The translations under genes and the position numbers were made by a program. A stretch of DNA of 49,304 bases from Candidatus Yanofskybacteria bacterium RIFCSPHIGHO2_01_FULL_41_26 (GTDB taxonomy: Bacteria > Patescibacteriota > Minisyncoccia > 2-02-FULL-40-12 > GWA2-44-9): positions 1-49,304 of the forward strand of contig MGJB01000018.1 of the NCBI GenBank assembly GCA_001794055.1. The letters run 5' to 3'. The notes below the pieces were generated by a model, which worked only from the letters and a program-made list of their open reading frames with translations, ran no database searches and was not told the origin of the DNA. This document shows positions 12,476 to 35,365 of the stretch, in pieces; within the stretch, counting starts at the first letter, position 1, and each line of letters opens with the position of its first letter.

Positions 12476-12484
12476 TTATAATAT

Positions 12485-13732
12485 TTAAATTCTTTTTATC
12501 TCTGCCCCTATTTTTCTTAAGCGTTCTTCTATTTTTTCGTAGCCTCTGTCAATCTGATATACGTTGTTTAGGGTTGATTTGCCTTTTGCAACCAGCGCAG
12601 CGATAAGGTATGCCATTCCTGCTCGTAAATCCGGACTCTCGATTTCTCTGGCCCTAAGTTTTGTTGGTCCTTTTATGGAGATTCTGTGGGGGTCGTGCAT
12701 TAAAACGTCCGCTCCCATTCTTTTCAATTCGTCAAGCCAAAAAAGGCGGCTTTCAAATATGGTTTCGTGAACCAACCCCTGTCCCTCTGCTTGAGTTAAT
12801 AGCACACAAACAGGCGCCTGTAAATCAGTCGGAAAGCCGGGATATTCATGGGTCTTGACGTCCACTGTTTTTAACCGAGAAGGGATAATCTCCACGCTGT
12901 CGCTGCTTATCTTTAAACAAACTCCGGCACTTTTCAGCACAATCCACAAGGAATCTAAGTGTTCCGGTTCGCAATTTTTTATTAAAATATTGCTTTTTGT
13001 AGCTGCCGCTAAAATAGCGAATGTTCCGGCTTCTATTCTATCCGGTATTGTTTTATATTCTGCGCCCTTTAAACTTTCAACTCCTTCAATTATAACGAAA
13101 GGAGTGCCTGCTCCTCGAATTTTTGCTCCGCATGAATTTAAGAAATTGGCCAAACTTTCTATTTCCGGTTCACAGGCGCAGTTTTTTAAAACGGTTTTTC
13201 CTTTAGCAAGAGAGGAGGCCATGAGCATGGCTTCGGTTCCAGTAACGCTTATATTACTGAATACAAATTTGGCCCCTCTTAATTTCCCGCTGATGTTATA
13301 AAGATTGTTGCGATAATTTATTTTTGCTCCCAATGCTTTGTAACCATCCAGAAACACATTTATCGGCCTTTCGCCTATGACACATCCGCCCGGGTGGGGA
13401 AATTTTACATTTCCAGTACGAGCGAGAACTGAAGATGTAAGTACGATTGAGGCTCGGAGTTTTTTAGCTATATAAGGATTTATGACTGAGGTTTTTATTT
13501 TGGCGGCAGTTATCTGGTATTCTCCTTTTTTAGGATGAATTACTTCAACCCCTAAATCTTTCAGCAGTTCGGATATCCTAGTGATGTCTTCTACTTCGGG
13601 AACATTTTTTATTTTAACCGTTTCGGGCGTGAGAATAGAAGCTGCAAAAATTTTAAGAGCAGCATTCTTTGCTCCCTTGACTTCTATTGTTCCTCTTAAT
13701 TTTTTCCCGCCGTTTATTACGAATTTATCCAT
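12485..13732 (-). CDS. murA: UDP-N-acetylglucosamine 1-carboxyvinyltransferase
   Basis: MDKFVINGGKKLRGTIEVKGAKNAALK and active-site HPGGCVIGERPIN. Start trimmed to the ATG at 13732, because the longer ORF reads into a hairpin-repeat region. Confidence 0.9.
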   Translation of the reverse strand: MDKFVINGGKKLRGTIEVKGAKNAALKIFAASILTPETVKIKNVPEVEDITRISELLKDLGVEVIHPKKGEYQITAAKIKTSVINPYIAKKLRASIVLTSSVLARTGNVKFPHPGGCVIGERPINVFLDGYKALGAKINYRNNLYNISGKLRGAKFVFSNISVTGTEAMLMASSLAKGKTVLKNCACEPEIESLANFLNSCGAKIRGAGTPFVIIEGVESLKGAEYKTIPDRIEAGTFAILAAATKSNILIKNCEPEHLDSLWIVLKSAGVCLKISSDSVEIIPSRLKTVDVKTHEYPGFPTDLQAPVCVLLTQAEGQGLVHETIFESRLFWLDELKRMGADVLMHDPHRISIKGPTKLRAREIESPDLRAGMAYLIAALVAKGKSTLNNVYQIDRGYEKIEERLRKIGAEIKRI

Positions 13733-25469: not shown

Positions 25470-27053
25470 TTAGTTATTAAGTAAGAATCGGAAAATAGCC
25501 CCAAGATATTTATTGTTCAGTAATGATTGGGGCGCTGGTTCCGATGGTGGAGGCGGAGGTGGTAGCATTTCTCTTTGAGGTTCTTGAAACTGCTGCTGCA
25601 TTTGAGGTACAGGTTCAAGCGGTTGGGATTGTTCTATCGGCATGCGGCCTTCAAACTCTGATGGAGGCACAAATCCTGGCGGAGGAGTCATCTCATCGCT
25701 TGGCATAGGCATTTCTGGTCGTTGAAACTCTGGGGGTATTTGTTTGTCTTGTGGTTCTCTTCGTTCCCATTCGCGCGGCTCCTCTCTTTCTCCTGGTGGA
25801 GGAAATTGATTTTGGATTGGCCTTTGCTCATTAGATCTTTGCTTATCTTCTGATCGTTGAAAATTTTGGCAGGCTTCTGGATTTTGAGAGCAAAAACTCT
25901 GGCATTCTTCCGGTGTAGAACATCCTCCGGGGCTGCGGCGGAATTCGCTACCTTCTGGCGGCGGTATGCCCGGTCTTCCTTCATGTTCTTGTCTTTCTTG
26001 TTCTTGCCCTGGCTCGCCTTCCATCGACGGGGGCATTTTTTGGAAACAACCTTGAATTGCATCTCCCAATTGAGGTCCGGGAGTGAGTTCTCCCGACTGG
26101 ATTTTGTTCATTGTTTTTTCACCAAGAGCTGATCTCAAGCAGTCCCTTGCTTCGCTTGGCATCCTATCTATGTCTTCGCGCATTCGATTCATCCCTTCTT
26201 TCATTCTGCTCAATTCTTCTTCGGTGATCATTCCATTCTCTTCGGCGAATTTAAAACATATATCTTGGTTAGATGGATTATTACAAAATGATTCACACTC
26301 CTCTTTGCCTTTGCACCCGCCCGGACCTTTGCCTTTTGTTTTTCTCGCCATTTCTGCTTCTTTTGCGTCCATAAATCCGGCTTCAATCGCAAAATTCATA
26401 CAGACTTCCATATTGTCTGGTTGTTGGCAATATTCATCGCAGGCCTGTCTGCCTCGACAAGGTAGCGGTTTAACTCCTCTTTTGAGGGCCTGCAACATTT
26501 TTTGGGCATTTTCTTTCTCCTGATCACCCATCAAACCGGCTTCAGACGCAAAGGTAACACATTCTTCCATATGGCTCGGATTCCCGCAGTAGCTATCGCA
26601 CGATTTCTTGTTGCCGCAAGCCGGCGGTTTAACACCTCGTTTAATTGCATTGCGTACTTTTTGAGCTTCCCGTAGCTCATCAGGCGGTATCAAGCTGTTT
26701 TGCTCGGCAAACGAAACACACTCGTCAATGCGAGAAATGTCATTGCAATATGTTTCACAAGAATCCTTACCAGTACATCCGCCGGGACCCTTGTTGCCTG
26801 AGGCCGCGAACTTTTTGGCCATTTCAAGCTCTTCCTTCGGCATTAAATTGTTCTGTTCAGCAAAATTTAAACAGGCCGAAATATTCTCAGGTCTATCACA
26901 ATAACTCCGGCATTCGGATTCACTTTTACAATTTCCAAGCTGGGAAACCGGATATTGAATATCCGAAATACCGGCAAACACTTGAACAGCAAAAAAAGAC
27001 AATATGCCGACTCCAGCCAAGTAAAGTATAAAAATAATTTTATTTTGTTTCAT
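25470..27053 (-). CDS. secreted Cys-rich tandem-repeat protein with Pro/Glu/Gln-rich tail
   Basis: Signal/anchor MKQNKIIFILYLAGVGILSFFAVQVFAG, followed by six copies of a ~45-aa module C-x5,6-C-x3-C-x8,9-C-x2-FA. Confidence 0.75.
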   Translation of the reverse strand: MKQNKIIFILYLAGVGILSFFAVQVFAGISDIQYPVSQLGNCKSESECRSYCDRPENISACLNFAEQNNLMPKEELEMAKKFAASGNKGPGGCTGKDSCETYCNDISRIDECVSFAEQNSLIPPDELREAQKVRNAIKRGVKPPACGNKKSCDSYCGNPSHMEECVTFASEAGLMGDQEKENAQKMLQALKRGVKPLPCRGRQACDEYCQQPDNMEVCMNFAIEAGFMDAKEAEMARKTKGKGPGGCKGKEECESFCNNPSNQDICFKFAEENGMITEEELSRMKEGMNRMREDIDRMPSEARDCLRSALGEKTMNKIQSGELTPGPQLGDAIQGCFQKMPPSMEGEPGQEQERQEHEGRPGIPPPEGSEFRRSPGGCSTPEECQSFCSQNPEACQNFQRSEDKQRSNEQRPIQNQFPPPGEREEPREWERREPQDKQIPPEFQRPEMPMPSDEMTPPPGFVPPSEFEGRMPIEQSQPLEPVPQMQQQFQEPQREMLPPPPPPSEPAPQSLLNNKYLGAIFRFLLNN

Positions 27054-27413: not shown

Positions 27414-27488
27414 GGGGGCTATGGTGAAATGGTTATCACAGCGCTCTGTGGAAGCGCGGTCGTGGGTTCAATTCCCACTAGCCCCCCA
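27414..27488 (+). tRNA. tRNA-His (GUG)
   Basis: Hand-folded cloverleaf: G-1 plus acceptor GGGGCUA/UAGCCCC, anticodon arm GCGCU-CUGUGGA-AGCGC, and T arm GUGGG-UUCAAUU-CCCAC. Confidence 0.85.
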
Positions 27489-27506
27489 TCTGTGTTAAAA
27501 TAAATT

Positions 27507-27704
27507 ATGAATAACAATCAAAAAACAAGCGACGATGTGTTAGATGATAATGCATCAGTTGAGATAGTTGGTTTAGACAAGCTCGAAAAAGAAGAGCCGG
27601 GGGATTCGACTGTCAACACCTCTGACTATGGGGATGATGTTGACGACACAACCCCAGAAGAAGCCGAAGAAATGCTTGAAAAAGCAAATGAAATAATAAA
27701 ATAA
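27507..27704 (+). CDS. small highly acidic protein (65 aa)
   Basis: ATG ORF directly after tRNA-His; Asp/Glu-rich; no motif. Confidence 0.35.
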   Translation: MNNNQKTSDDVLDDNASVEIVGLDKLEKEEPGDSTVNTSDYGDDVDDTTPEEAEEMLEKANEIIK

Positions 27705-27713
27705 TTTTTTTTA

Positions 27714-29204
27714 TTATTTATTCGCAGAATTAGTATTGGCTAAATACTTTTTGAAAAAAGCATCCGCCACCTTAGCTGAAACAGTAACAATTGACGCCAT
27801 ACTGTGGAAATCAGTATTTGAAGTCCACTCTCTTGGCGGTCTGCCGTTGTTTCTGTATATAAAATTTTTGACGCTATCCACTCTTCCTTCGGGCCGCCCA
27901 TTTTTGTATTTGACAAAATTTGTTAAAGGAATTTTTTTCCCATCAATTAACAACAAGTGGTCTTTTAATAATCTAATTACATTTCTGTGTCCCCACTGAT
28001 AAGCCGCGTACGCAACCCATCTTTGTTCGTCCTCGCTGAATTCTAGCCATCTCTCAACTCCAATATCATCAATTATAAAAATAATTTTTTCCATCAAAAG
28101 GGCTCCTACCGCCTCAATCATGTCCTTTGTTTTTAACATTTTGGCTACAGTTCTCATTCCTGCCTCATTACTGCCAACCCCCTCTTCTATTGGCTGGGTG
28201 TTTTCGGTGCCAAAAACTTCTTTAGAAAAAAAATTTTTCACTATTCCAAACGAATCATACGGCATCATTTTTTCTTTAAAATTAGTTTCCAGAAGACCTC
28301 GACGAATTAAATTATCAACATCAGTCCCCAAACTGTCGGCACCGATACTACCCATGGTATCTATGTACTTATTGTCTTGGAAACCAGGATAATCAATTTC
28401 TCTTGCCATCCCTTCCTGCAGAACCACCGATGCCAAAAATCCGGGACTTAATCGGATGCACTCGCTGCCATATTTTTTATTTATGTTTCCGGCTCGTCTA
28501 TTTAGAATTTGAGAAGTTGTAACGATTCTATCATTGAAACTTTTGTATCGATGATAACCCAGTCGCTTAACCAGCTTAATTCCAAACGACGAACTCTCGC
28601 TTTTCAAAAGATTCGAGTAATCTATTCTTTTTAACAAATCTCTCCATCTCTCCTCATCCAACATATCCGCATTTTTCCTTGCTCTAATTTCTTCTGTATT
28701 TATAAAATCTTCAGCATAAATATGCTTTTTGATTGATCGTGCTAATGCAAAAGTCTCATTATCGTGATATACTCCTCCTATCAAGTCTGACATTTTTTTT
28801 ATTCCTTCTTTTTCGAGTCGTTTCTTAACACTCTCTAGAAGTTTTTTGTAATCTACGGAATCATATTTATGAACTGTTTCCTCTCCACGGCTTTTTGATT
28901 TTGCTAATTCAACGGTTTTTGTTTCTTTCGGTATATCTCCCGATCGGCTTGCTCTATAAACCGGAGCTCCGATTGATACAAAAATCGACAACGCAAGAGC
29001 GTATCTTATCAAAGTGTCTCGACTGCGGCCTATCAAGGAAATCACCTTGATGGTTTGTTCCGGTACTTCCTCTTGCGTCTCTGAAAGATTTTCCTCTATT
29101 TTCTCTAATTTTCCTGCATCTTCAGTCAGCTGTTCTTTGGTAAATAAAGCTGCATCGGTAACTTCTTTAGAAATTTCTGGTTTAGATTTAGGCGTTTTTT
29201 CCAT
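27714..29204 (-). CDS. hypothetical membrane-anchored protein (496 aa)
   Basis: Acidic N-terminus, one TM segment (ALALSIFVSIGAPVY), and a large C-terminal domain. No motif recognised with confidence. Confidence 0.65.
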   Translation of the reverse strand: MEKTPKSKPEISKEVTDAALFTKEQLTEDAGKLEKIEENLSETQEEVPEQTIKVISLIGRSRDTLIRYALALSIFVSIGAPVYRASRSGDIPKETKTVELAKSKSRGEETVHKYDSVDYKKLLESVKKRLEKEGIKKMSDLIGGVYHDNETFALARSIKKHIYAEDFINTEEIRARKNADMLDEERWRDLLKRIDYSNLLKSESSSFGIKLVKRLGYHRYKSFNDRIVTTSQILNRRAGNINKKYGSECIRLSPGFLASVVLQEGMAREIDYPGFQDNKYIDTMGSIGADSLGTDVDNLIRRGLLETNFKEKMMPYDSFGIVKNFFSKEVFGTENTQPIEEGVGSNEAGMRTVAKMLKTKDMIEAVGALLMEKIIFIIDDIGVERWLEFSEDEQRWVAYAAYQWGHRNVIRLLKDHLLLIDGKKIPLTNFVKYKNGRPEGRVDSVKNFIYRNNGRPPREWTSNTDFHSMASIVTVSAKVADAFFKKYLANTNSANK

Positions 29205-29346
29205 TTCTATTTAAATATTTGTTGATTATAACAAGGGCTTTTTCAAGTCCCTCGCGTTCTTTATTGCCCAAGCCGCTTTCTAATAAATTTAAAATCTCTT
29301 CGCGAAGATTTTTCAATTCCTCTAAGTTTTTGTTTTTATCTTCCAT
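29188..29346 (-). CDS. small coiled-coil protein (52 aa), tentative
   Basis: ATG at 29346 (MEDKNKNLEELKNLREEI...). The track ORF start at 29391 overlaps tRNA-Pro and was rejected. No obvious RBS. Confidence 0.3.
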   Translation of the reverse strand: MEDKNKNLEELKNLREEILNLLESGLGNKEREGLEKALVIINKYLNRNGKNA

Positions 29347-29351
29347 TTTTG

Positions 29352-29422
29352 TCGGGATGCCGAGATTCGAACTCGGACTAAAACGTCCCAAACGTCTCGT
29401 GCTACCGTTACACTACATCCCG
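29352..29422 (-). tRNA. tRNA-Pro (UGG)
   Basis: Minus strand: CGGGAUG acceptor, anticodon arm AGACG-UUUGGGA-CGUUU, T arm CCGAG-UUCGAAU-CUCGG. CCA is not encoded. Confidence 0.85.
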
Positions 29423-29490
29423 AATTTACCCTATCCTACCACTTACCATATATTTTAGCACGAGATAGGGTGAAAAGCGTACTGTGTACA

Positions 29491-29519
29491 GAAAATATAA
29501 AAGCCGAGTTTCCTCGGCC
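29491..29519 (-). terminator. rho-independent terminator of the Ubl cassette
   Basis: On the minus strand: gccgag-gaaa-ctcggc followed by ttttatatttt; 36 nt after the Ubl stop codon. Confidence 0.65.
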
Positions 29520-29554
29520 TGTATGAGATTATGCCTTCTGACTAAAGTAAGGAA

Positions 29555-29824
29555 CTAACCTTTTTGGCCTGCTGGCTTTTTGAATTCCAGCTCTTCGTTG
29601 CCATCAAGGAATACGCCCTCATCTGCAAGTTGCTTGCCATTGACCAAGATCACAGTGTGGTCATCACCGATATTCATGACTTCGCGAAGGTTGTTGCGAA
29701 CCTCACGCACGGTATATCCAAGCATACCTTCAAGTTCTTGGGTATTCGCACCACAGACAACACGTAGTCTGTCGGTTTTGGTAGTAGTCGCAGTCGGCGC
29801 AACAGAAGTTGCAAGCTTAAGCAT
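29555..29824 (-). CDS. ubiquitin-like beta-grasp protein (ThiS/MoaD/Prok_Ub-like), C-terminal Gly
   Basis: 89 aa. VILVNGKQLADEGVFLDGNEELEFKKPAGQKG-stop resembles the ThiS/MoaD C-terminal half. The last residue is Gly. Last gene of an operon with E1-like and JAB genes. Confidence 0.65.
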   Translation of the reverse strand: MLKLATSVAPTATTTKTDRLRVVCGANTQELEGMLGYTVREVRNNLREVMNIGDDHTVILVNGKQLADEGVFLDGNEELEFKKPAGQKG

Positions 29825-29885
29825 TTTAGGTCTCTTTTCCTTGTTTACGGATCTTTCGATAGTATATTACACTACAATACCAGTG

Positions 29886-30581
29886 TCAAGGGCTAGTCAA
29901 TTTTTGCCTAACTGGGCGTACATTACCAGTTTGAAGATCAAAATATACTTCGTAATAAGGACCAAAACCATTAAGCCACAGAACAAAGGCATTCAGCATT
30001 AAAGTTGCTACCGTTAAGTTAACAACTAGAAGTTGAGGCTCCCCAGCTTTAGCAAGTTCTTCACATGATAATTCTGCTGGATTACGATCAATTGGACTCT
30101 CGATTTCTGGATGCTGAAATGTGAGTGAGGGTGTAATGTCTTTGCCCCCACGCCTCTCATATACTTGAACATTGCCATCGTACAGCTCGTTGCCCCCAGA
30201 AATAAGCAGAGCATTATCCAAAGAGGCAACGTGGCCTGATACTAGATTTCTAGTCGCATGGTTATCACAGCCAAGAAAGATTACGTCACCTTCTCGAATT
30301 AATGCCAAAATATTATTTGAATTTACAAAGACTGGTTTAGATTCAATATTTAACTCTGTAAACATCAGCTCAAGCCATTCTTTTGTAGTCTCTGCTTTAT
30401 TTGCTAAAGCAGAAAATTTTTGACGCTCACGATTGCGCTCTTTATAGGCCTTACCATCTATCAATATGACTCGCTTGGGAATTTTTTCATTATCTGAGTC
30501 AGAGTAGGCTAAAATTCTACAGAGAGGTTCAACAAGATTACTACCTATACCTCCTAAACCCACTATTGCAACTCTCTTCAT
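29886..30581 (-). CDS. minimal ThiF/MoeB/E1-like adenylyltransferase (231 aa)
   Basis: IVGLGGIGS (Rossmann P-loop), ILIDGKAYKERNRERQ (E1 D...N..RQ motif), FLGCDNHATR (DN...R motif). Confidence 0.8.
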   Translation of the reverse strand: MKRVAIVGLGGIGSNLVEPLCRILAYSDSDNEKIPKRVILIDGKAYKERNRERQKFSALANKAETTKEWLELMFTELNIESKPVFVNSNNILALIREGDVIFLGCDNHATRNLVSGHVASLDNALLISGGNELYDGNVQVYERRGGKDITPSLTFQHPEIESPIDRNPAELSCEELAKAGEPQLLVVNLTVATLMLNAFVLWLNGFGPYYEVYFDLQTGNVRPVRQKLTSP

Positions 30582-31322
30582 TTACTCTTCTTCCCTTTGT
30601 TTCATTAACCTAACGCTATTTCGCCATTCTTCAGGCGGTTCATACTTTTCTGGCAAAAGTTTTTCTTCACCAGCTAGTACATATTCTTCTTGTTTATACT
30701 TAGGGTAAGAGTAGTAAACAGCTATGGGCTGTTTTACAACGCCTTCTATCAATTTACCTGGATCAAGAGTAAACCTAGTTCCATTTATGCATGCCTGTAA
30801 GCTTAGGTTGAAGGAATTACGATAGAAATAAAATCCACCAAATGTTCCGTGTATTCCGTCAAAGTTTATCTCATCGTGATGATCAATTGATGAATGAAAT
30901 GCCAACATCCTGCCATGTGAATGCAGAGTTCCTATGAGACGATGGTTTTCTTTTTGAGGTATATCATATTCGATTCTTCCATAAGCCACTGCCTGAGGCG
31001 GGACAGTAATATTGTAACCTCCTACATCAGATCCACTCCACCACAAAAGTGCTAGGGCTTCAGTGTTTTGCCTGTGAGTAATCCAAGCAAAGAATTGTGC
31101 AACTGTTTTTAATATTTCTTTAGGTATTGGGGGCAACAGGAATTCAAACTTAGGCTCTTGTTCTTCTAGTATGCTAATTCGTTCCACGGGAACGATAGCT
31201 TTCCAAAACGGCGTCTCTTTGTGAAGAAACACTCCATTAGCACTAATTTCATACAAGGTTGGCGTATCTGGTTTAGGCGTATTCTTATCGTGAATCCATA
31301 CTGGGTACATAGGCATAATCAT
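30582..31322 (-). CDS. JAB/MPN (JAMM) metalloprotease
   Basis: Glu88 (NTEALALLWW), then GTLHSHGRMLAFHSSIDHHDE, which is H-x-H-x7-S-x2-D (H134 codon at 30921-30923). The stop abuts the E1 start and the start overlaps the upstream stop (ATGA). Confidence 0.8.
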   Translation of the reverse strand: MIMPMYPVWIHDKNTPKPDTPTLYEISANGVFLHKETPFWKAIVPVERISILEEQEPKFEFLLPPIPKEILKTVAQFFAWITHRQNTEALALLWWSGSDVGGYNITVPPQAVAYGRIEYDIPQKENHRLIGTLHSHGRMLAFHSSIDHHDEINFDGIHGTFGGFYFYRNSFNLSLQACINGTRFTLDPGKLIEGVVKQPIAVYYSYPKYKQEEYVLAGEEKLLPEKYEPPEEWRNSVRLMKQREEE

Positions 31323-32665
31323 TCTCCTTTCTGCTGTAATTCTTCTACGAAGTGCTCACCAAAATCTTTACCCATCTTTTTGGAACGCCTTCTGAGAGAA
31401 GTAGTCAGTTTAACTACAAGATTGGTTATTTGCACTGAAAGAAAATCTTTGGCACCTTGAACCATGTTTTGAGGAACACTGAAATGTGCTCCCAAAAAAA
31501 GAATTTTTTCCTCAAGTTGTTCACGAAATTGTGATGCAAGTAGTTTTAGCTGACCATCTCTTTTTTGAGCCAAACTTTCTTGAGATTTTTCATATTTCTG
31601 GGCTATATAATCTAGGACCGCTTTTACCATTTGTCCCAGGTTATAATCACATTGTATCCAAGGTAATTTACAGACAGCCAGTAAAGAGTCCTCGCGCATT
31701 GAGAATTTTTCCCATTCTTCGATATTACTTACTTCTGGGATTGTACTTGCTGCTTGGCGCCACAATTCGGTTGACCACGGTTGGCCATCGTAAAAACCGC
31801 TTCCCCAGAACCAATCCAATAATGTTAGATTCCAGTTAGGGTCAGATAATTTTATTGGAGGTCGGCCAGAACCTAAACAAGTTCCGAAGGGTAACTGATA
31901 GTTTACTTCTGGCAGATTGCAAAAGTACAAAGCCTCGTTTTGACTTTGAAGTTTTTTTGATCCATAAAAAACACCTAAACCACAGTGACCATGGTCATTG
32001 TCACCGCTAGGAACGTCTTCATATAATTCGCCGTTCACGAAATAAACGATAAAGCGTACCCAAGGAAATACAAGCCTTCTCTTCACCCCACACATATCTA
32101 TGGTTCTTCGTTGAGGAGGAACATCCAAACAGAAAGCCGTATAAGTGTATTTAGGGGTTATAAGTTGCCAACGGAAACGAGTATTAACTGGGAATGGCCC
32201 ATCCGTTTGAAAGACACGCTCTTGTCTCCTATCTTGTTCATAGGCCCTACCTATTTCTTCAAACTTGTCATTAGCAAAGGATGAGAACATCTTTTCGCCC
32301 TGTGTCCCAAGTGCATCAAGTAATTCCTTTCGGAATTTTTTCTCACCCGCATTTATGCATGTATCAACCAGTGGGCTTATTAAGTCTGCGAGCTTATCTA
32401 TTTCCGGTTTGGCAATAGTTGTATTCCAACTATCCAGCATTTCAATAGTTGCTCTTTGGACTGATTCTGCAACAGATTCAGCAAGACTAGACTGGTCTCG
32501 AATAAATTCTAGTTTTTTAGGTTTGTACAGTCCTAAAAATTTAGATCCATTTTGAAATAATAGTCTCCAGACAGAGCCATCAGTATCTAGGAAAACTTTA
32601 CCTATAGAATCTGAAATACTTCTAGTATTAAGCGATTGACCGCTAAGCTCTTCTTGGTTAGTCAT
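31319..32665 (-). CDS. uncharacterised 448-aa protein, candidate E2/UBC-like component
   Basis: First gene of the cassette. The central beta-rich stretch is followed by NLPEVNYQLPFGTCLGSG (Cys263 codon at 31877-31879), reminiscent of the E2 HPN...G.[IV]CL flap. Helical N- and C-terminal regions. Assigned by eye only. Confidence 0.4.
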   Translation of the reverse strand: MTNQEELSGQSLNTRSISDSIGKVFLDTDGSVWRLLFQNGSKFLGLYKPKKLEFIRDQSSLAESVAESVQRATIEMLDSWNTTIAKPEIDKLADLISPLVDTCINAGEKKFRKELLDALGTQGEKMFSSFANDKFEEIGRAYEQDRRQERVFQTDGPFPVNTRFRWQLITPKYTYTAFCLDVPPQRRTIDMCGVKRRLVFPWVRFIVYFVNGELYEDVPSGDNDHGHCGLGVFYGSKKLQSQNEALYFCNLPEVNYQLPFGTCLGSGRPPIKLSDPNWNLTLLDWFWGSGFYDGQPWSTELWRQAASTIPEVSNIEEWEKFSMREDSLLAVCKLPWIQCDYNLGQMVKAVLDYIAQKYEKSQESLAQKRDGQLKLLASQFREQLEEKILFLGAHFSVPQNMVQGAKDFLSVQITNLVVKLTTSLRRRSKKMGKDFGEHFVEELQQKGE

Positions 32666-32710
32666 TTAACGACTCTTCCTTCATCGAATTTATAAATGAA
32701 CTTGGCCAAT

Positions 32711-32747
32711 ATTCTACACCAAAGTTATACAAGAGTCAATATTGACT
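32711..32747 (-). promoter_or_regulatory. sigma70-like promoter of the cassette, overlapped by a 14-bp perfect palindrome
   Basis: Minus strand: TTGACT (32734-32739), 17-nt spacer, TAGAAT (32711-32716). The palindrome AGTCAATATTGACT (32734-32747) covers the -35. RBS GGAAGAG lies 7 nt before the ATG. Confidence 0.5.
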
Positions 32748-32761
32748 TTCGGATGGGCCGC

Positions 32762-32836
32762 TTTCCTATCTGGTCCCCTCGGAGGGAATCGAACCCCCAT
32801 CAAGACCTTAGAAGAGTCCTGCTTTATCCATTAAGC
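32762..32836 (-). tRNA. tRNA-Arg (UCU), CCA encoded
   Basis: Minus strand: acceptor CCCCUCG/CGAGGGG, D arm GCUU-AAUGGAUA-AAGC, anticodon loop CUUCUAA, T arm GGGGG-UUCGAUU-CCCUC, then ACCA. Confidence 0.85.
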
Positions 32837-32969
32837 TACGAGGGGATATTCATCTGCCACTTGTCAATTTTACTCTAAAACAAACTTTTTGAAAAGGAAG
32901 TTTACACCTGATTCGCATTGTGATACATATTGACACAAAAGCTCGTTTAAAATTCAAAAGGACAGGCCC

Positions 32970-35273
32970 ATGAATTTGTTCTGGAGGAAGTCAAGAGAAT
33001 TATTTGACTTGATCCCAAAACAGCTTAAAACAGATTACTGGATTTTTACCATTAAACGCCGGCCATGGTTGAAGAAATTATTTGCGGTCCTTTTTTTGCT
33101 CTTTTTGTTCATGGGAGCAACGGTAGTTTCGGGATATTGGTATGTGTATTACTTCAAAGGCTGTTTTTTTAATTTAGGTTGTTTGAATGATGATCAAGGC
33201 CAACCGCTTGATATAGAAAAAATCGCCCAGTTTAAATTTAAAAAGGCCTCCTACGTTTATGCTAATAACAAAAAGGAAATCGGAAAATATTTTGACGAAA
33301 TAAGAGACCGCGCTCGGTTAAATGAAGTTCCCCAACTTCTTCAAGATGCTTTTATAGCCGCCGAAGATAAAAGATTTTATCAGCACTCGGGGATTGATGT
33401 GTATGCCATTGCTTCTGCCCTTATCGGCAACACTACGCATGAATTCGGTTTTAAATTTTGGACGAGATCAGGTGGGGCAAGCACCATAACCCAGCAATTA
33501 TCAAGACTCGCTTTTGCCGATGAAGTACCTGATTTCAAAACCAGAGCCCGTACCTACAATCGGAAATTAAAGGAAGCAAGACTAGCAATTCGGATAGAAA
33601 AACGTTATTCAAAAAAGGAAATTCTCGAAACTTATCTGAACTTAATCTGGCTTGGCCACGGGGCCAACGGCGTTGTTCCCGGAGCTAAGCGCTATTGGGG
33701 CAAAAATATCCGCAAAGAACGGCTTTCCATCAAAGAGGCCGCCATGCTTGCGAGTATTAATAAAAATCCCGCTCTTTATGACCCGATTTTTCACAAACCG
33801 CCCGAACCAAAAATAGAGGAAGGGACTTCTCCCGAAGCAATCGCAAAGTTGCAGGAAGAATATGAAGCAGCAAAAATAAAAGAAGTCATTCGATTGGCAA
33901 CCGCTAAAGACCGATATAATTTTGTCCTTAAGCAAATGAAATACCGCGGATCCATATCCCAAAAGGAATACGAGGAAAATTTATTTCAAAAAGATAAAAA
34001 TCCCGATACGGAAGCATTGGCCAAGCTAGAGTCTTGGAAAAACCCCGAATATGGTTATGGCAATCGAATGGTGAAAGAAATGCTTTTGACATCAGGACAC
34101 AATGAAGATGAGATATCCCAAAACGGCGGATTGAGGATTTATACAACTTTTGTCCCATCAATCCAAAAAATTACCTCGGAAGAATTTGAGAAACATCTGG
34201 CGCTGCTGAACGAAGGCAAAGAACAAAAAGACCGGCTAAATGGCGCCTTTATTGTAATAGAAGTAAAAACCGGAAATATTCTGGCTTTAAGCGGTGGAAA
34301 TAATTTTGATGAAAGCCAATATAACCGTGCAATGGCATCACGTTCACCGGGTTCGGGTTTCAAACCCTTTACCTATGCTGCGGCAATGGAATACTCCCAT
34401 AAGGATTTTTTTGACAAGATATGCAACTGCTCTTTCAGCATGAGGGGCAGCGGTCCTGGTAAAATCTGGACGCCAAAGAATTTTCAAGAAGAAAACCCTG
34501 TGCCGATCGGCTACATTCCTTTCTCAACCGGACTCATTCGGTCGGTGAATCTTGCCACCCTCAACGAAGCCCGTTCATTAGGCATGGGACCAATTCTAAA
34601 ATTGGCCAACTCAATGGGTGTCTGGGGAAACCCGGGCATAGTCAGAGATTCCGACGGAAAAATTTGGTTTAAAAAGCCCCACTATGAGATAAGGGGCGGA
34701 CTTGTTCCCCTTTTGCCGACAGCTATCGGGGCTTCGGATGTGAATCTTATCGAACTGGCAAATGCTTATACCGTTTTCTTCCGGGGCGGAAACTATATCA
34801 AACCGACACTCATCCGAGAAATTAAAAACACTTACGGCGATGATCTTCTGTATAAAGCTGATACTCCGAATGAAAAACGGGTCCTTTCTAAGAAAACCGC
34901 CAATAAAATGCTTGCCTTAATGCGAGCTGTCACAAAAATTGGTACTGCCAAAATATCAATGCGCGGCATTGAACAGCAAGTTGCATGCAAAACAGGCACT
35001 TCCGATGGTCCTAGGGATGTTTCGATGTGGTGTGGAACTCCGGAATTTGTTATTGCCGTCCGGTTCGGGATGGATGACTATAGAATAATTGAATTGCCCG
35101 CATACATGAAAAAAATGACCGGCCGATCTGACATGCAGGTATCAGGCGGTTGGGCTGCAGGACGATTTATCAGAAATGTTATTGTCCGATACTATAAAGA
35201 CAGACAGAAAGTGAAATTTTCCCCTTCAGTAGAATCTGAATTAAAGCGACTCTTGGATTCAAATCCCCAATAG
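32970..35273 (+). CDS. mrcA: class A penicillin-binding protein (bifunctional transglycosylase/transpeptidase)
   Basis: GT51 motifs EDKRFYQHSGID, GASTITQQL, RKLKEA. Transpeptidase motifs SGFK (SxxK), SVN, KTGTS. N-terminal TM segment. Confidence 0.9.
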   Translation: MNLFWRKSRELFDLIPKQLKTDYWIFTIKRRPWLKKLFAVLFLLFLFMGATVVSGYWYVYYFKGCFFNLGCLNDDQGQPLDIEKIAQFKFKKASYVYANNKKEIGKYFDEIRDRARLNEVPQLLQDAFIAAEDKRFYQHSGIDVYAIASALIGNTTHEFGFKFWTRSGGASTITQQLSRLAFADEVPDFKTRARTYNRKLKEARLAIRIEKRYSKKEILETYLNLIWLGHGANGVVPGAKRYWGKNIRKERLSIKEAAMLASINKNPALYDPIFHKPPEPKIEEGTSPEAIAKLQEEYEAAKIKEVIRLATAKDRYNFVLKQMKYRGSISQKEYEENLFQKDKNPDTEALAKLESWKNPEYGYGNRMVKEMLLTSGHNEDEISQNGGLRIYTTFVPSIQKITSEEFEKHLALLNEGKEQKDRLNGAFIVIEVKTGNILALSGGNNFDESQYNRAMASRSPGSGFKPFTYAAAMEYSHKDFFDKICNCSFSMRGSGPGKIWTPKNFQEENPVPIGYIPFSTGLIRSVNLATLNEARSLGMGPILKLANSMGVWGNPGIVRDSDGKIWFKKPHYEIRGGLVPLLPTAIGASDVNLIELANAYTVFFRGGNYIKPTLIREIKNTYGDDLLYKADTPNEKRVLSKKTANKMLALMRAVTKIGTAKISMRGIEQQVACKTGTSDGPRDVSMWCGTPEFVIAVRFGMDDYRIIELPAYMKKMTGRSDMQVSGGWAAGRFIRNVIVRYYKDRQKVKFSPSVESELKRLLDSNPQ

Positions 35274-35291
35274 GGGATTTTAGTTTTATCT

Positions 35292-35365
35292 TGGAGCGGG
35301 TAACGAGATTCGAACTCGTGTCTACTCCTTGGAAGGGAGTCGTACTACCACTGTACTATACCCGC
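35292..35365 (-). tRNA. tRNA-Gly (UCC), CCA encoded
   Basis: Minus strand: GCGGGUA acceptor, anticodon arm ACUCC-CUUCCAA-GGAGU, T arm CACGAG-UUCGAAU-CUCG, ending ...UACCCGCUCCA. Confidence 0.85.

What the first reader, a model, noticed from the sequence alone, without database searches (positions are those of the whole stretch)
29555..32665. Compact ubiquitin-like conjugation cassette (E2-like? / JAB-MPN / minimal E1 / Ubl) in a reduced genome
Four co-directional minus-strand genes are packed as one unit. There is an ATGA start/stop overlap at 31319-31322. The JAB stop codon directly abuts the E1 start at 30581/30582. A 61-nt gap precedes the last gene. (i) 29555..29824 encodes 89 aa. Its C-terminal half, VILVNGKQLADEGVFLDGNEELEFKKPAGQKG, reads like a ThiS/MoaD/ubiquitin beta-grasp, and the protein ends in Gly. 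(ii) 29886..30581 encodes 231 aa with the E1/ThiF adenylation motifs GLGGIGS, DGKAYKERNRERQ and CDNHATR. (iii) 30582..31322 carries a complete JAMM motif: E88, then H134-S-H136-x7-S144-x2-D147. (iv) 31319..32665 encodes 448 aa with no family obvious by eye, but it carries an E2-like Cys flap (see separate finding). This is the parts list of bacterial Ubl-conjugation operons: the Bil system, type II CBASS Cap2/Cap3, the PRTRC cassette, and the predicted Prok-E2/Prok-JAB/Prok_Ub operons. Some of those operons act against phage. Here the E1 is much smaller than E1s in the characterised defence systems, the large partner protein is unassigned, and the host looks like a minimal-genome episymbiont. 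It may therefore be a distinct minimal variant whose target and function are unknown.
Basis: partly seen in the sequence, partly recalled or inferred. Interest (0 to 1): 0.88.

Follow-up and report, generated by a model that had tools for sequence, protein, structure and literature searches.

The report
Ubiquitin-like tagging cassette in Patescibacteria
Four tightly packed genes in a tiny-genome (Patescibacteria/Saccharibacteria-type) bacterium encode what appears to be a complete ubiquitin-like protein-tagging kit (activating enzyme, conjugating enzyme, small tag, tag-removing protease). It is a distant, previously undescribed relative of a predicted but never-tested plasmid system (PRTRC / "6d"), and relatives also sit in large phage genomes.

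Summary
All four minus-strand ORFs, their junctions and the quoted motifs are present, and the same four genes co-occur in the same order in at least 10 independent loci.

- **Ubl (89 aa):** predicted beta-grasp whose best fold matches are ubiquitin, MoaD and SAMP1. It has an invariant P-[AS]-G-x-K-G C-terminus.
- **E1 (231 aa):** ThiF-family, collinear over its full length with PRTRC ThiF. It has a conserved crossover-loop Cys172.
- **JAB (246 aa):** carries an invariant JAMM motif and matches PRTRC protein A.
- **Large protein (448 aa):** Its core (residues ~150-345) is a divergent Prok-E2_D/PRTRC-B domain (hhalign probability 99.65%), with Cys263 aligned to the family's conserved Cys. Its N- and C-terminal helical extensions match nothing.

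The cassette is therefore a new chromosomal variant of the uncharacterised "6d"/PRTRC-core operon class. It is not Bil, CBASS, Bub or a sulfur-carrier pathway.

New findings:
- The Ubl gene has its own conserved promoter.
- One contig carries at least 3.5 tandem paralogous cassettes.
- The E2 is the fastest-evolving component.
- Related cassettes occur on predicted viral contigs of 29-178 kb, and an E2_D-JAB-E1 triad occurs in a cultured Bacillus jumbo phage.

The biochemistry is well supported by inference. The biological role (phage/mobile-element conflict versus housekeeping regulation) remains open.

The parts
32711..32739 (-). Promoter-like site (TTGACT-17-TAGAAT) about 45 nt upstream of the first gene. 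It overlaps a weak palindrome at 32727-32754.
   Evidence: Consensus scan, 10 of 12 matches; palindrome I7. Inferred only; the number of promoter-like sites in the region is no higher than in shuffled sequence.
31319..32665 (-). Gene 1: 448-aa enlarged E2-like protein. Layout: N-terminal beta + long-helix region (~1-148); Prok-E2_D/PRTRC-B-like UBC core (~150-345) with candidate catalytic Cys263 in N-L-P-E-V-x4-P-F-G-T-C-L-G; C-terminal helical extension (~345-448) with the conserved QFREQLEEKIxFLGAHFSVP motif.
   Evidence: No direct Pfam, NCBIfam, PADLOC or PHROGs hit. A profile of 7 orthologues finds 156 cluster representatives, and 33 of 113 distant ones carry Prok-E2_D, 5 PRTRC_B. P0081 passes the Prok-E2_D gathering score in the matched region. 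hhalign against a set containing two Vibrio PRTRC-B proteins gives probability 99.65%, E=5e-25, with the Cys aligned. C263 is invariant or nearly so.
30582..31322 (-). Gene 2: JAB/MPN+ (JAMM) metalloprotease of 246 aa (probably 244 aa from the ATG at 31316). It has an N-terminal ~85-aa JAB-N-like domain. Catalytic residues are E88, H134, H136, S144 and D147, followed by a conserved DE-x2-FDGIH-x-T-x-G motif.
   Evidence: PRTRC_A TIGR03735 E=1e-7 over 130 residues; Prok-JAB E=0.0034. The orthologue in L003 passes the Prok-JAB gathering score (29.4 bits). The motif is invariant in 15 homologues. The only PDB profile hits are AMSH/AMSH-LP JAMM deubiquitinases with the motif aligned, E~0.1.
29886..30581 (-). 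Gene 3: minimal single-domain E1 (ThiF/MoeB-type adenylation domain, 231 aa). Features: GxGxxG (GLGGIGS), R-x-R-Q, D105-N-H-A-T-R110, and candidate thioester Cys172 in the crossover loop (L-S-C-E-E-L). It has no CxxC zinc motifs, no rhodanese domain and no second (inactive) adenylation domain.
   Evidence: ThiF PF00899 E=3.8e-16, above the cut-off. PRTRC_ThiF E=3.5e-9 over the full length, residues 3-224 against model positions 13-241 of 245. MoeB 1jw9 E=2e-6 over the N-terminal half only. Cys172 is conserved in all Patescibacteria-type and phage copies.
29861..29889 (-). Internal promoter for the Ubl gene (TTGACA-17-TATACT) in the 61-nt spacer. It overlaps the E1 stop codon.
   Evidence: Consensus scan, 11 of 12 matches. 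The TTGAC(A) box and a TAnnnT-like box are conserved in the otherwise unconserved spacer of 7 loci, including the most distant one, L011. A 50-120-nt spacer precedes the Ubl gene in every locus, whereas genes 1-3 abut or overlap.
29555..29824 (-). Gene 4: ubiquitin-like beta-grasp modifier of 89 aa. It has a variable ~18-aa N-terminal tail, a conserved core, and an invariant C-terminus K-K-P-A-G-Q-K-G89.
   Evidence: AF2 model has pLDDT 72 (core ~80) with beta-beta-alpha-beta-beta-beta topology. Top 50 Foldseek PDB hits are ubiquitin, MoaD, SAMP1 and Caldiarchaeum ubiquitin, with TM-scores of about 0.5-0.69. The family profile hits a phage di-Ubl (1.5e-16) that itself passes the Pfam ThiS gathering score. 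Two of 11 orthologues carry one extra residue after the Gly.
29501..29520 (-). Intrinsic-terminator-like hairpin (AGGCCGAG-GAAA-CTCGGCTT followed by a T-rich tail), 35 nt after the Ubl stop codon. It closes the operon before tRNA-Pro.
   Evidence: Terminator scan; sequence read.

Best explanation
This is a self-contained E1-E2-Ubl-deubiquitinase cascade for reversible protein tagging. It belongs to the uncharacterised '6d'/PRTRC-core class of bacterial ubiquitin-like operons.

Proposed mechanism (all steps inferred from conserved residues and family knowledge; none assayed):
1. The 89-aa beta-grasp protein is made from its own promoter, mostly in mature form ending in Gly89. In orthologues with an extra C-terminal residue, and in phage di-Ubl forms, the JAMM protease first exposes the Gly.
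2. The 231-aa ThiF-type E1, presumably a homodimer like MoeB/ThiF, adenylates Gly89. It then takes the Ubl as a thioester on crossover-loop Cys172.
3. The Ubl passes to Cys263 of the Prok-E2_D-like core of the 448-aa protein.
4. No E3 is encoded. The E2's fast-evolving N- and C-terminal helical extensions most likely choose the target, to which the Ubl is attached on lysine.
5. The JAMM protease removes the tag again.

Biological role: most likely (about 45%) conflict with phages or other mobile elements, either defence or a domesticated mobile-element module. A housekeeping regulatory role in Patescibacteria is the main alternative.
For: **All four activities are present with intact, conserved catalytic residues**
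- E1: ThiF PF00899 E=3.8e-16; full-length collinearity with PRTRC_ThiF; Cys172 conserved.
- E2: the orthologue profile reaches Prok-E2_D/PRTRC_B proteins; hhalign probability 99.65%, E=5e-25, with the Cys aligned.
- JAMM: motif invariant in 15 sequences; matches PRTRC_A and Prok-JAB.
- Ubl: beta-grasp model with ubiquitin/MoaD/SAMP1 fold matches; invariant P-[AS]-G-x-K-G end.

**The C-terminal Gly is the reactive end**
- Two orthologues carry one extra residue after the Gly, and one phage copy ends ...EAGSKGC.
- Phage di-Ubls have the motif at the internal junction.
- Ubls with N-terminal fusions (Rho_N) keep a free C-terminal Gly.

**Strict co-occurrence and order**
- E2-JAB-E1-Ubl recurs in at least 10 loci, down to 22% E2 identity and into the next-nearest E2 family.
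- Genes 1-3 are translationally coupled. The Ubl gene has a conserved promoter of its own.

**Evidence bearing on a conflict role**
- The family is rare and patchy: 8 close homologues among 5.8e9 proteins and 156 clusters among 1.84e9.
- The E2 evolves fastest: 23-59% identity against 51-78% for the E1.
- One contig holds a tandem array of at least 3.5 paralogous cassettes.
- Relatives occur on predicted viral contigs, plasmids and a cultured jumbo phage.
- The characterised cousins Bil, CBASS Cap2/3 and (by context) Bub act in phage defence (PMC11601596, PMC10557695).
Against: - There is no biochemical evidence for any step.
- The 448-aa protein gives no direct hit to any E2 model. Its AF2 model is poor (pLDDT 54.8, with the Cys263 loop below 50) and gives no meaningful fold match. 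The E2 assignment therefore rests on transitive and profile-profile homology, and part of the comparison set was itself found with the query profile.
- The conserved His after the Cys that Iyer et al. describe for 6d E2s is absent.
- The Vibrio PRTRC ThiF has Ala where Cys172 sits (a Cys lies two residues earlier), so the thioester residue is not universal in the wider class.
- Against a defence role: PADLOC gives no system hit. The neighbours are housekeeping genes (RNase Y, HU, PBP1A, AlaRS, Dus). There is no GC anomaly and no att-like repeat. Two genomes with 42% E2 identity keep the cassette in the same HU/protease/PBP1A neighbourhood, which suggests vertical inheritance.
- Carriage by phages is equally compatible with a pro-phage function.
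Confidence: 0.7

Rival explanations
1. Housekeeping protein regulation. This uses the same conjugation chemistry as the best explanation. The cassette would be a vertically inherited Patescibacteria system that tags the cell's own proteins, for example for turnover, localisation or activity control as with archaeal SAMPs, rather than acting in phage or mobile-element conflict.
For: - The context is chromosomal and housekeeping, with no mobile-element genes, no GC anomaly and no att repeats.
- Partial synteny (HU, 418-aa protein, Trypsin_2 protease, PBP1A) between the window and L003, despite 42% E2 identity.
- PADLOC is negative.
- An AAA ATPase lies directly upstream of the cassette in L036.
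- An operon with its own promoters and terminator suggests steady expression.
Against: - Very patchy and rare: one hit among 185,579 GTDB species representatives with the (close-relative) patterns used, and few clusters overall.
- The flanks differ in most loci.
- Tandem paralogue arrays and the fastest divergence in the putative specificity component are typical of conflict systems.
- The nearest relatives are on phages and plasmids.
Confidence: 0.25
2. Sulfur-carrier pathway. The small protein would be a ThiS/MoaD-type carrier that the ThiF-like enzyme adenylates and thiocarboxylates for cofactor, cysteine or tRNA-thiolation chemistry, with the JAB protease only maturing the carrier (as with CysO/Mec+).
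For: - The E1 matches MoeB/ThiF models (E~1e-9 to 1e-6) and MoeB 1jw9.
- The Ubl core has a ThiS/MoaD-like V-N-G...L-x-G-x-E-(L/I/V)-E-F pattern, and a phage homologue passes the Pfam ThiS cut-off.
- MoaD and SAMP1 are among the fold matches.
Against: - All MoeB/ThiF matches lie far below their trusted cut-offs and cover only the N-terminal half. The full-length matches are to PRTRC ThiF and mobile-element E1s.
- The operon contains an E2-type protein with a conserved Cys.
- The Ubl ends in K-G, not G-G.
- There is no rhodanese domain, no CxxC zinc site, and no ThiG/ThiH/MoaE/cysteine-synthase gene in the cassette or within 10 kb.
- Phage poly-Ubl and N-terminally fused Ubl forms make no sense for sulfur transfer.
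Confidence: 0.05
3. Relic of a mobile-element replication/partition accessory (the PRTRC-like role). The module would serve plasmid or phage DNA maintenance. The chromosomal copy would be a domesticated or decaying remnant whose E2-like protein is a non-catalytic scaffold.
For: - In mobile elements the E2_D/JAB/E1 genes sit beside replication and partition genes: DnaN and ParA in the Vibrio plasmid; Rad52, a helicase, Pol III delta and SSB in Butyrivibrio pNP144; a DnaN-like gene in phage scaffold MT835919.
- PRTRC is by definition ParB-associated.
Against: - No ParB, DnaN or other replication gene lies next to any Patescibacteria cassette.
- All catalytic residues, including the E2 Cys, are conserved across 22-59% identity, so the genes are under purifying selection and not decaying.
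- Only one locus (L007) shows a split E2 gene.
Confidence: 0.08

Closest known systems
Iyer-Burroughs-Aravind 2006 operon type '6d' (Ubl + JAB with JAB-N + E1-like + E2-like + alpha-helical protein), which is the core of the TIGRFAM PRTRC system (PRTRC_C/Prok_Ub, PRTRC_A/JAB, PRTRC_ThiF, PRTRC_B/Prok-E2_D). Predicted in 2006 and, as far as the searched library shows, never characterised (PMC1779556).
   Same: - The same four protein types are present.
- The E1 is a ~230-260-aa single-domain protein, collinear over its full length with PRTRC ThiF.
- The JAB protein has an extra N-terminal domain and matches the PRTRC_A model over ~130-150 positions.
- The E2 is of the Prok-E2_D type: Cys present, no HPN histidine.
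- The Ubl is small and ends in Gly. The Vibrio PRTRC_C tail KKSLGTKG resembles KKPAGQKG here.
- The local order B-A-ThiF matches E2-JAB-E1 here.
   Different: - Every match is far below the PRTRC trusted cut-offs.
- There is no ParB and no PRTRC D, E or F.
- The cassette is chromosomal in Patescibacteria rather than on plasmids or ICEs of Proteobacteria and others.
- The E2 is about twice as long (430-500 aa), with unassigned N- and C-terminal helical regions, and lacks the conserved His after the Cys.
- There is no separate alpha-helical protein gene.
- The Ubl gene is last in the operon and has its own promoter.
- The Ubl does not hit Prok_Ub or PRTRC_C.
Cassettes on predicted viral contigs (IMG/VR UViGs L039/L038, L024, L025, L041, L042, L043) and the gp214-gp216 triad of Bacillus jumbo phage vB_BceM_WH1
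   Same: - E1 identity of 38-42% (E~1e-58 to 1e-65 against the cassette profile).
- JAB with the same extended motif.
- Ubl with the same [AS]-G-x-K-G end.
- L039 and L024 have the same gene order, and L039 also has a large E2-like protein (830 aa, hit directly by the cassette E2 profile).
   Different: - Carried on phage-like genomes of 29-178 kb with GC of 0.24-0.63.
- Most have a short (189-259 aa) E2_D and the order Ubl-E2-x-JAB-E1.
- Ubls are often tandem (di-Ubl) or N-terminally fused (Rho_N).
- L024 adds a second ThiF-like gene.
- No Ubl was detected near the Bacillus phage triad.
Bil (BilABCD, '6C') anti-phage system
   Same: Ubl + E2 + JAB + E1 with no E3. The E2 is proposed to pick targets directly (PMC11601596).
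   Different: - BilD is a multidomain E1 (IAD-AAD-CYS); here the E1 is a single 231-aa adenylation domain.
- BilB is a CEHH-type E2, not Prok-E2_D.
- No PADLOC hit to any Bil model.
Type II CBASS Cap2/Cap3 ('6A/6B')
   Same: ThiF-type adenylation domain, E2-type Cys relay and a JAB protease. PADLOC E1-E2 models give weak hits (E>=3e-4) to the nucleotide-binding part of the E1.
   Different: - Cap2 is an E2-E1 fusion that conjugates a CD-NTase, and it has no Ubl.
- Here there is no CD-NTase or effector gene, the E1 and E2 are separate, and a dedicated Ubl is present.
Bub ('6E'/DUF6527) pathways
   Same: A bacterial E1/E2/Ubl operon of the same broad superfamily. Poly-Ubl forms exist there, as in the phage relatives found here.
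   Different: - Bub E1 and E2 lack catalytic cysteines and use oxyester intermediates.
- Bub has a DUF6527 serine protease and fused proteins (PMC11601596).
- Here both cysteines are conserved and the protease is JAMM.
ThiS-ThiF / MoaD-MoeB sulfur-carrier pairs
   Same: The adenylation-domain fold and motifs, and a beta-grasp partner with a C-terminal Gly.
   Different: - No Gly-Gly end, no zinc CxxC motif, no rhodanese domain and no pathway partners nearby.
- An E2 and a JAMM protease are present.

Membership tests
PRTRC system (TIGRFAM genome property) | ParB-related protein (TIGR03734) in the cassette | tested here: not met
   No ParB-family gene is in the four-gene unit. None appears among the Pfam-annotated genes within 10 kb on either side, or in the other Patescibacteria loci.
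PRTRC system (TIGRFAM genome property) | PRTRC_ThiF (TIGR03736) at or above the trusted cut-off | tested here: not met
   36.3 bits against a cut-off of 144.75. The match is full-length (residues 3-224 against model positions 13-241 of 245), E=3.5e-9.
PRTRC system (TIGRFAM genome property) | PRTRC protein A (TIGR03735) at or above the trusted cut-off | tested here: not met
   31.7 bits against a cut-off of 101.8, E=1e-7. Orthologues score 24.7-27.8 bits.
PRTRC system (TIGRFAM genome property) | PRTRC proteins B and C (and D, E, F) recognisable | tested here: not met
   No NCBIfam hit for the 448-aa or the 89-aa protein. The relation to B is only transitive or profile-profile. No genes for D, E or F are present.
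Operon type 6d of Iyer et al. 2006 | Small beta-grasp protein with a conserved C-terminal glycine | tested here: met
Operon type 6d of Iyer et al. 2006 | E1-like protein without a rhodanese domain, encoded next to a JAB protein that carries an extra N-terminal alpha+beta domain | tested here: met
   The E1 is 231 aa with a ThiF domain only. The JAB protein has a conserved ~85-residue N-terminal region that aligns with the N-terminal part of the PRTRC_A model. The 'strictly conserved Arg and Trp' of JAB-N were not mapped.
Operon type 6d of Iyer et al. 2006 | E2-like protein with a conserved Cys, lacking the classical HPN His but with an absolutely conserved His C-terminal to the Cys | tested here: inconclusive
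   The Cys is conserved and there is no HPN His (N-L-P-N/E instead). No conserved His follows the Cys; position +5 is Arg in the close orthologues and variable in the wider family.
Operon type 6d of Iyer et al. 2006 | Separate alpha-helical protein with conserved charged residues | tested here: not met
   There is no fifth gene. The E2 has helical extensions with a conserved charged motif (QFREQLEEK), but no similarity to any protein of the PRTRC or phage loci was detected.
Pfam Prok-E2_D (PF14460) | Match at or above the gathering score | tested here: not met
   No direct hit for the 448-aa protein or its close orthologues. It is related by profile search (33 of 113 distant hits carry the domain; P0081 scores 27.3 bits, at or above the 25-bit cut-off) and by hhalign (probability 99.65%). 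It is therefore a divergent relative that the current model does not capture.
Pfam Prok-JAB (PF14464) / JAMM metalloproteases | E...HxH-x7-S-x2-D metal-binding and catalytic motif; model match | tested here: met
   The motif is invariant. The window protein scores 17.7 bits (below the 25-bit cut-off), while the orthologue in L003 scores 29.4 bits.
Pfam ThiF (PF00899) E1 adenylation domain | Model match above the gathering score; GxGxxG, Arg finger and Asp motifs | tested here: met
   59.4 bits against a cut-off of 28.1. The motifs are invariant.
Bil (BilABCD) | Multidomain E1 (inactive + active adenylation domains + Cys domain) and a CEHH-type E2 | tested here: not met
   The E1 is a single 231-aa domain. 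No PADLOC Bil hits. Architecture taken from PMC11601596 and PMC10557695.
Type II CBASS (Cap2/Cap3) | E2-E1 fusion next to a CD-NTase and an effector | tested here: not met
   The E1 and E2 are separate and no CD-NTase is in the neighbourhood. Only weak PADLOC E1-E2 hits, E>=3e-4.
Bub (6E/DUF6527) | DUF6527 serine protease; E1 and E2 without catalytic Cys | tested here: not met
   The protease is JAMM. Both cysteines are conserved.
ThiS/ThiF or MoaD/MoeB sulfur transfer | Gly-Gly C-terminus, pathway partners (ThiG/ThiH, MoaE), E1 zinc CxxC motifs or a rhodanese domain | tested here: not met
   The Ubl ends K-G. There are no CxxC motifs, no rhodanese domain and no partners within 10 kb. Whether such partners exist elsewhere in the genome could not be tested.

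The most novel reading that the evidence does not exclude
Patescibacteria may carry their own stand-alone ubiquitination system. In this reading a single enlarged protein combines the E2 with the substrate-recognition (E3-like) role through its fast-evolving helical extensions. Paralogous cassettes, seen as tandem arrays, would each tag a different target, for example proteins of invading phages. That would make it a new immune strategy in a lineage that often lacks CRISPR and most known defences. Phages would carry related cassettes as counter-weapons. It would also be the first functional assignment for the long-orphaned 6d/PRTRC class.
Probability: 0.25. Interest if true: 0.8.

Novelty: new variant of a known kind. 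Interest (0 to 1): 0.62.

Why it matters
Bacterial ubiquitin-like conjugation is a young field. CBASS Cap2/Cap3, Bil and Bub have been worked out only recently. The 6d/PRTRC class, predicted in 2006, still has no assigned function in the literature searched here.

- **What this cassette offers:** it is a compact, complete and strongly conserved representative of that class, in an unexpected place: the streamlined chromosomes of Patescibacteria.
- **Experimentally useful features:** a minimal 231-aa E1, an E2 that appears to carry its own specificity modules, a Ubl with a distinctive AGxKG end, and natural precursor forms for testing the JAMM protease.
- **Hints of an arms race:** the tandem paralogue arrays and the phage-borne relatives, including a triad in a cultured Bacillus jumbo phage.
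- **If confirmed:** it would extend ubiquitin-type signalling to the candidate phyla radiation and give the PRTRC class a biochemical function.

Tried and rejected
1. **Direct family scans of the 448-aa and 89-aa proteins** against Pfam, NCBIfam, PADLOC and PHROGs returned nothing.
2. **AF2 model of the 448-aa protein** from a 7-sequence alignment was poor (pLDDT 54.8). Its Foldseek PDB search gave only meaningless matches (best E=0.12, TM<0.2). Both structure-prediction jobs were then spent, so a deeper alignment could not be tried.
3. **Sequence-profile search of the E2 family against PDB** gave no significant hit. A weak, non-significant match of the C-terminal motif to the helical hairpin HP0062 was ignored.
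4. **hhalign of the E2 family and the Ubl family against single Vibrio PRTRC_B and PRTRC_C sequences** was not significant (E 0.13 and 0.17), although the Cys motif and the KK-x-x-G-x-KG tail align. Against the phage 238-aa E2_D the result was E=0.003.
5. **The N- and C-terminal extensions of the E2** were compared with every ORF of the PRTRC, plasmid and phage loci, testing the idea that they are a fused '6d alpha-helical protein'. Nothing scored below E~0.004 and all alignments were short.
6. **Integration signs** were looked for and not found: no flanking direct repeats or tRNA fragments and no GC shift, despite the flanking tRNA-Arg and tRNA-Pro genes.
7. **The downstream 496-aa protein** was tested as a fifth component. 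It is not found next to any other cassette.
8. **The PDB profile hit of the Ubl to polyubiquitin** (E=1.8e-8) was discounted. It is the sum of nine individually insignificant repeats, and single ubiquitin scores E~1.
9. **The GTDB scan with the broad alignment** failed for lack of conserved stretches. The narrower scan finds only close relatives, so its single hit is not a census.
10. **Literature searches for a PRTRC/6d function** found nothing relevant.

Full report
**1.

The mechanical ORF list gives four co-directional minus-strand ORFs at exactly the stated coordinates: 31319-32665 (448 aa), 30582-31322 (246 aa), 29886-30581 (231 aa) and 29555-29824 (89 aa). The junctions are as described:
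- GGAGAATGATTATG shows the ATGA overlap.
- GAGTAAATGAAG shows the TAA|ATG abutment.
- A 61-nt spacer precedes the last gene.

One refinement concerns the JAB start. The GGAG box lies 7 nt before the third-codon ATG (31316) but only 1 nt before the ATG at 31322. Homologues begin MP[IL][YF]P, and one public gene call uses the shorter form. The JAB protein is therefore probably 244 aa and begins 2 nt after the upstream stop codon.

The unit has:
- a promoter-like site upstream of gene 1;
- a near-consensus TTGACA-17-TATACT in the spacer before the last gene;
- a hairpin plus T-run terminator after the last gene.

It lies between tRNA-Arg (32771-32845) and tRNA-Pro (29351-29422).

**2. The four genes travel together.**

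The 448-aa protein has only 8 homologues among 5.8 billion sequences, and the 89-aa protein only 9. Every homologous contig that is long enough carries the same four genes in the same order:
- L001/L002/L008, L003, L004, L007 and L015;
- L011, with only 22-25% identity of the large protein;
- L034;
- L036, from the next-nearest family of ~490-aa proteins.

Catalytic motifs are conserved in all of them. Chance or mis-annotation is excluded.

**3. What each protein is.**

*E1 (231 aa).*
- ThiF PF00899, E=3.8e-16, above the gathering score.
- The only full-length NCBIfam match is PRTRC_ThiF (residues 3-224 against model positions 13-241 of 245, E=3.5e-9). The MoeB/ThiF models match the N-terminal half only. 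All matches lie far below the trusted cut-offs.
- The cassette E1 profile scores 75.6 bits on a Butyrivibrio plasmid E1, 66.2 on a faecal phage E1, 52.9 on a Bacillus jumbo-phage E1 and 49.9 on a Vibrio PRTRC ThiF, all full-length. Against E. coli MoeB it scores 30.6 bits on half the length.
- GxGxxG, R-x-R-Q and D-N-H-x-T-R are invariant.
- A Cys (C172, L-S-C-E-E-L) sits just before the helix that follows the crossover loop. From my memory of MoeB/ThiF structures, not tested here, this is where MoeB and ThiF carry their loop cysteine. It is conserved in every Patescibacteria-type and phage copy, but it is Ala in the Vibrio PRTRC ThiF.
- There is no CxxC zinc motif and no rhodanese domain.

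*JAB (246 aa).*
- PRTRC_A, E=1e-7 over ~130 residues; Prok-JAB, E=0.0034.
- All orthologues hit PRTRC_A (1e-5 to 1e-6), and the L003 orthologue passes the Prok-JAB gathering score.
- E88, H134, H136, S144 and D147 are invariant in 15 sequences that include phage copies. So is a downstream D-E-x2-F-D-G-I-H-x-T-x-G motif.
- The only PDB profile hits are the JAMM deubiquitinases AMSH and AMSH-LP, with the motif aligned, although E is only ~0.1.

*Ubl (89 aa).*
- No family model matches it.
- The AF2 model has pLDDT 72 (core ~80) and beta-beta-alpha-beta-beta-beta order.
- Its 50 best PDB fold matches are ubiquitin, MoaD, SAMP1 and Caldiarchaeum ubiquitin (TM-scores of about 0.5-0.69, probability 1.0; Foldseek E about 1e-3).
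- The family profile hits a phage di-Ubl at 1.5e-16, and that protein passes the Pfam ThiS cut-off.
- The C-terminus P-[AS]-G-x-K-G is invariant. Two of 11 orthologues have one extra residue (L or I) after the Gly.

*Large protein (448 aa).*
- Direct scans are empty.
- A profile of 7 orthologues, searched against 1.84 billion cluster representatives, gave 156 hits. Thirty are full-length family members. The rest match only positions ~150-360.
- Of 113 distant hits, 33 carry Pfam Prok-E2_D and 5 carry NCBIfam PRTRC_B. No other domain recurs.
- P0081 passes the Prok-E2_D gathering score in exactly the region matched.
- An alignment of three such proteins, the two Prok-E2_D/PRTRC_B proteins of a Vibrio PRTRC locus and a phage E2_D aligns to the family profile with probability 99.65% and E=5e-25 over 181 columns, Cys to Cys. 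This is partly circular, because three of the six sequences were found with the query profile.
- Shared motifs are visible by eye: LP-x-GTRF, PPQ-x-RTI, (A/S)FP(W/F/Y), FYR-x-x-pL-x-S-x-x-D-x-L, and N-L-P-N-x(5)-P-x(3)-C-L-G.
- The core is therefore a divergent E2/UBC-superfamily domain with candidate catalytic Cys263.
- The N-terminal ~148 residues and the C-terminal ~100 residues (long helices; conserved QFREQLEEKIxFLGAHFSVP) match nothing in PDB or in the PRTRC or phage loci.
- The AF2 model was too poor to use.

**4. Host and setting.**

- The window is identical over the region to NCBI assembly contig MGKG01000015.1 (GCA_001794675.1) and to several groundwater metagenome contigs. Its neighbours are RNase Y, HU, a DAO oxidoreductase, a Trypsin_2 protease, PBP1A, AlaRS and Dus.
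- The one GTDB representative found with close-relative patterns is an uncultured Candidatus Saccharibacteria MAG.
- Neighbours in other loci are also housekeeping genes: L20, IF3, SmpB, ArgRS, MetK, RRF, MiaA and ThrRS.
- There is no GC shift and there are no flanking repeats.
- The window and L003 (42% E2 identity) share the HU/418-aa/protease/PBP1A neighbourhood.

The cassette is thus a long-resident chromosomal feature in at least this lineage.

**5.

(a) *Own promoter for the Ubl gene.* The spacer before the Ubl gene is unconserved except for an invariant TTGAC(A) box and a TAnnnT-like box about 17 nt later. This holds in seven loci, including the most distant. The tag gene seems to have its own promoter, which is sensible for a stoichiometric substrate.

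(b) *Different rates of change.* The components diverge at different rates: E1 51-78% identity, JAB 44-64%, Ubl 41-87% and E2 23-59% for the same genome pairs.

(c) *Tandem array.* One 19.6-kb contig (L032) carries a tandem array, followed by MetK: E1+Ubl | E2-JAB-E1-Ubl | E2-JAB-E1-Ubl | E2-JAB.

(d) *Relatives on predicted viral contigs (IMG/VR).*
- L039/L038 (65 and 29 kb, GC 0.24): an 830-aa E2-like protein, then JAB, E1 and a 149-aa Ubl ending EAGRKG. This is the same order as in the window.
- L024 (71 kb): JAB, E1, a Rho_N-Ubl fusion ending AGSKG, a second ThiF-like gene and an RNA polymerase beta'-like gene.
- L025 (178 kb), L041 (175 kb), L042 (156 kb, GC 0.63) and L043 (103 kb): the order is Ubl or di-Ubl, a short E2_D, a small protein, JAB, then E1.

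(e) *Relatives in cultured elements.*
- Cultured Bacillus jumbo phages carry a related E1. In vB_BceM_WH1, gp214, gp215 and gp216 are E2_D-like, JAB-like and E1.
- Large Firmicute plasmids and a Vibrio PRTRC plasmid carry related sets beside replication and partition genes.

**6. How it most likely works.**

The parts, the conserved residues and the precursor forms fit a thioester relay:
1. JAMM maturation of the tag where needed.
2. Adenylation of Gly89 by the E1.
3. E1 Cys172 thioester.
4. E2 Cys263 thioester.
5. Transfer to a target lysine, chosen by the E2's own extensions because no E3 is encoded. Bil E2s are proposed to work this way (PMC11601596).
6. Removal of the tag by the JAMM protease.

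Each step is inferred; none is shown.

The sulfur-carrier alternative is unlikely, for four reasons:
- an E2 is present;
- the Ubl ends K-G;
- there is no zinc site, rhodanese domain or pathway partner;
- the phage poly-Ubl and fused-Ubl forms do not fit it.

The biological role is open. Rarity, the fast-evolving E2, the tandem paralogues and the mobile-element relatives point to conflict with phages or other mobile elements. The housekeeping context, the synteny and the negative PADLOC result point to endogenous regulation.

**7. Comparison with known systems.**

The closest kind is operon type 6d of Iyer, Burroughs and Aravind 2006: Ubl with a C-terminal Gly, JAB with an extra N-terminal domain, E1-like, Cys-only E2-like, and an alpha-helical protein (PMC1779556). 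Its proteins correspond to PRTRC C, A, ThiF and B.
- The window cassette works like that class.
- It is not a PRTRC member by the curated definitions. It has no ParB and no D, E or F, and all scores fall far below the cut-offs.
- It also differs in its double-length E2 without the post-Cys His, its lack of a separate helical protein, its gene order and its chromosomal Patescibacteria setting.
- It is not Bil (6C; multidomain E1, CEHH E2), not CBASS Cap2/3 (6A/6B; E2-E1 fusion with a CD-NTase) and not Bub (6E; Cys-less, DUF6527 protease) (PMC10557695, PMC11601596).

No paper in the searched library assigns a function to PRTRC/6d or links it to ubiquitin. That library is incomplete, so the point is not proven.

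**8. Verdict.**

This is a real, intact and conserved operon. It is a new variant of a predicted but untested kind of bacterial ubiquitin-like conjugation system.

Interest is moderate to high:
- The class is orphaned and the field is active.
- The cassette is minimal and experimentally tractable.
- The tandem arrays and phage-borne relatives are suggestive.

Against that, the concept was anticipated in 2006, and the role remains unknown.

Noticed in passing
L032:1-10359 (contig k141_851325 of ERZ27253378): Tandem array of at least 3.5 paralogous cassettes in one genome: E1+Ubl | E2 464/JAB 273/E1 230/Ubl 89 | E2 436/JAB 353/E1 226/Ubl 82 | E2 449/JAB 342. SAM synthetase follows. The last unit lacks its own E1 and Ubl.
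   Followed up: partly
L024:2476-2907 and L024:2976-6920 (IMG/VR UViG_3300023442_000001): A phage-contig Ubl is fused to an N-terminal Rho_N (SAP-like) domain. It is followed by a second, divergent ThiF-like gene, a 147-aa ORF and an 881-aa RNA-polymerase beta'-like gene (Rpb1 domains, NADFDGD motif).
   Followed up: partly
L025:7348-7785 and L041:4191-4706 (IMG/VR contigs of 178 and 175 kb): Head-to-tail di-Ubl genes in which each unit ends in AG-x-KG. One of them ends ...EAGSKGC. These are polyubiquitin-like precursors that would need JAMM cleavage. L025 also carries a reverse-transcriptase-like ORF (12272-13450) and a RuvB-like ATPase nearby.
   Followed up: partly
L030:2716-5810 (Bacillus phage vB_BceM_WH1, gp214-gp216): A cultured B. 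cereus jumbo phage has an E2_D-like (gp214), JAB-like (gp215) and small E1 (gp216) triad in the same order as the window cassette, annotated mostly as hypothetical. No Ubl gene was detected nearby. A NADAR-family gene follows.
   Followed up: partly
L036:470-2197: A 575-aa AAA-family ATPase lies directly upstream of, and co-directional with, the cassette of the ~490-aa E2 subfamily. It could link tagging to unfolding or proteolysis. It was seen in one organism only.
   Followed up: no
L007:939-2319 (GCA_040960625.1 contig JBFOMW010028733.1): The large E2 gene is split into two ORFs (192 + 253 aa) around the FPW strand region. This is either a frameshift/pseudogene or an assembly error. A database variant, P0002 (400 aa), has an internal deletion of residues ~84-131.
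   Followed up: no
window 25470-27053 (-): A 527-aa protein with an N-terminal hydrophobic segment, about five repeats of a C-x5-C-x3-C-x8-C-x2-FA(E) module and a Pro/Gln/Glu-rich tail. No Pfam family is on record for it. It looks like a secreted or surface Cys-repeat protein.
   Followed up: no
window 27415-35365: Four tRNA genes (His, Pro, Arg, Gly) lie within 8 kb, and two of them bracket the cassette. No tRNA fragment duplications or att-like repeats were found. The 67-aa ORF at 29188-29391 overlaps tRNA-Pro and is probably spurious.
   Followed up: yes
window 27714-29204 (-): A 496-aa protein of unknown family lies just downstream of tRNA-Pro on the same strand (weak PADLOC BnzB hit, E=0.0023). 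It is not found beside any other cassette, so it is probably unrelated.
   Followed up: partly
L014:2252-6705 (Butyrivibrio hungatei plasmid pNP144) and L013 (Vibrio penaeicida plasmid pIFO15642): In plasmids the E2_D/JAB/E1 genes are embedded in replication/recombination modules: Rad52, a helicase, Pol III delta and SSB in one; DnaN and ParA in the other. The Vibrio PRTRC locus has two Prok-E2_D paralogues.
   Followed up: partly
window 32727-32754: An imperfect palindrome (ATACAAGAGTCAATAT / ATATTGACTTTCGGAT, 81% complementary) overlaps the promoter-like site of the operon. It could be an operator. It was not tested for conservation.
   Followed up: no
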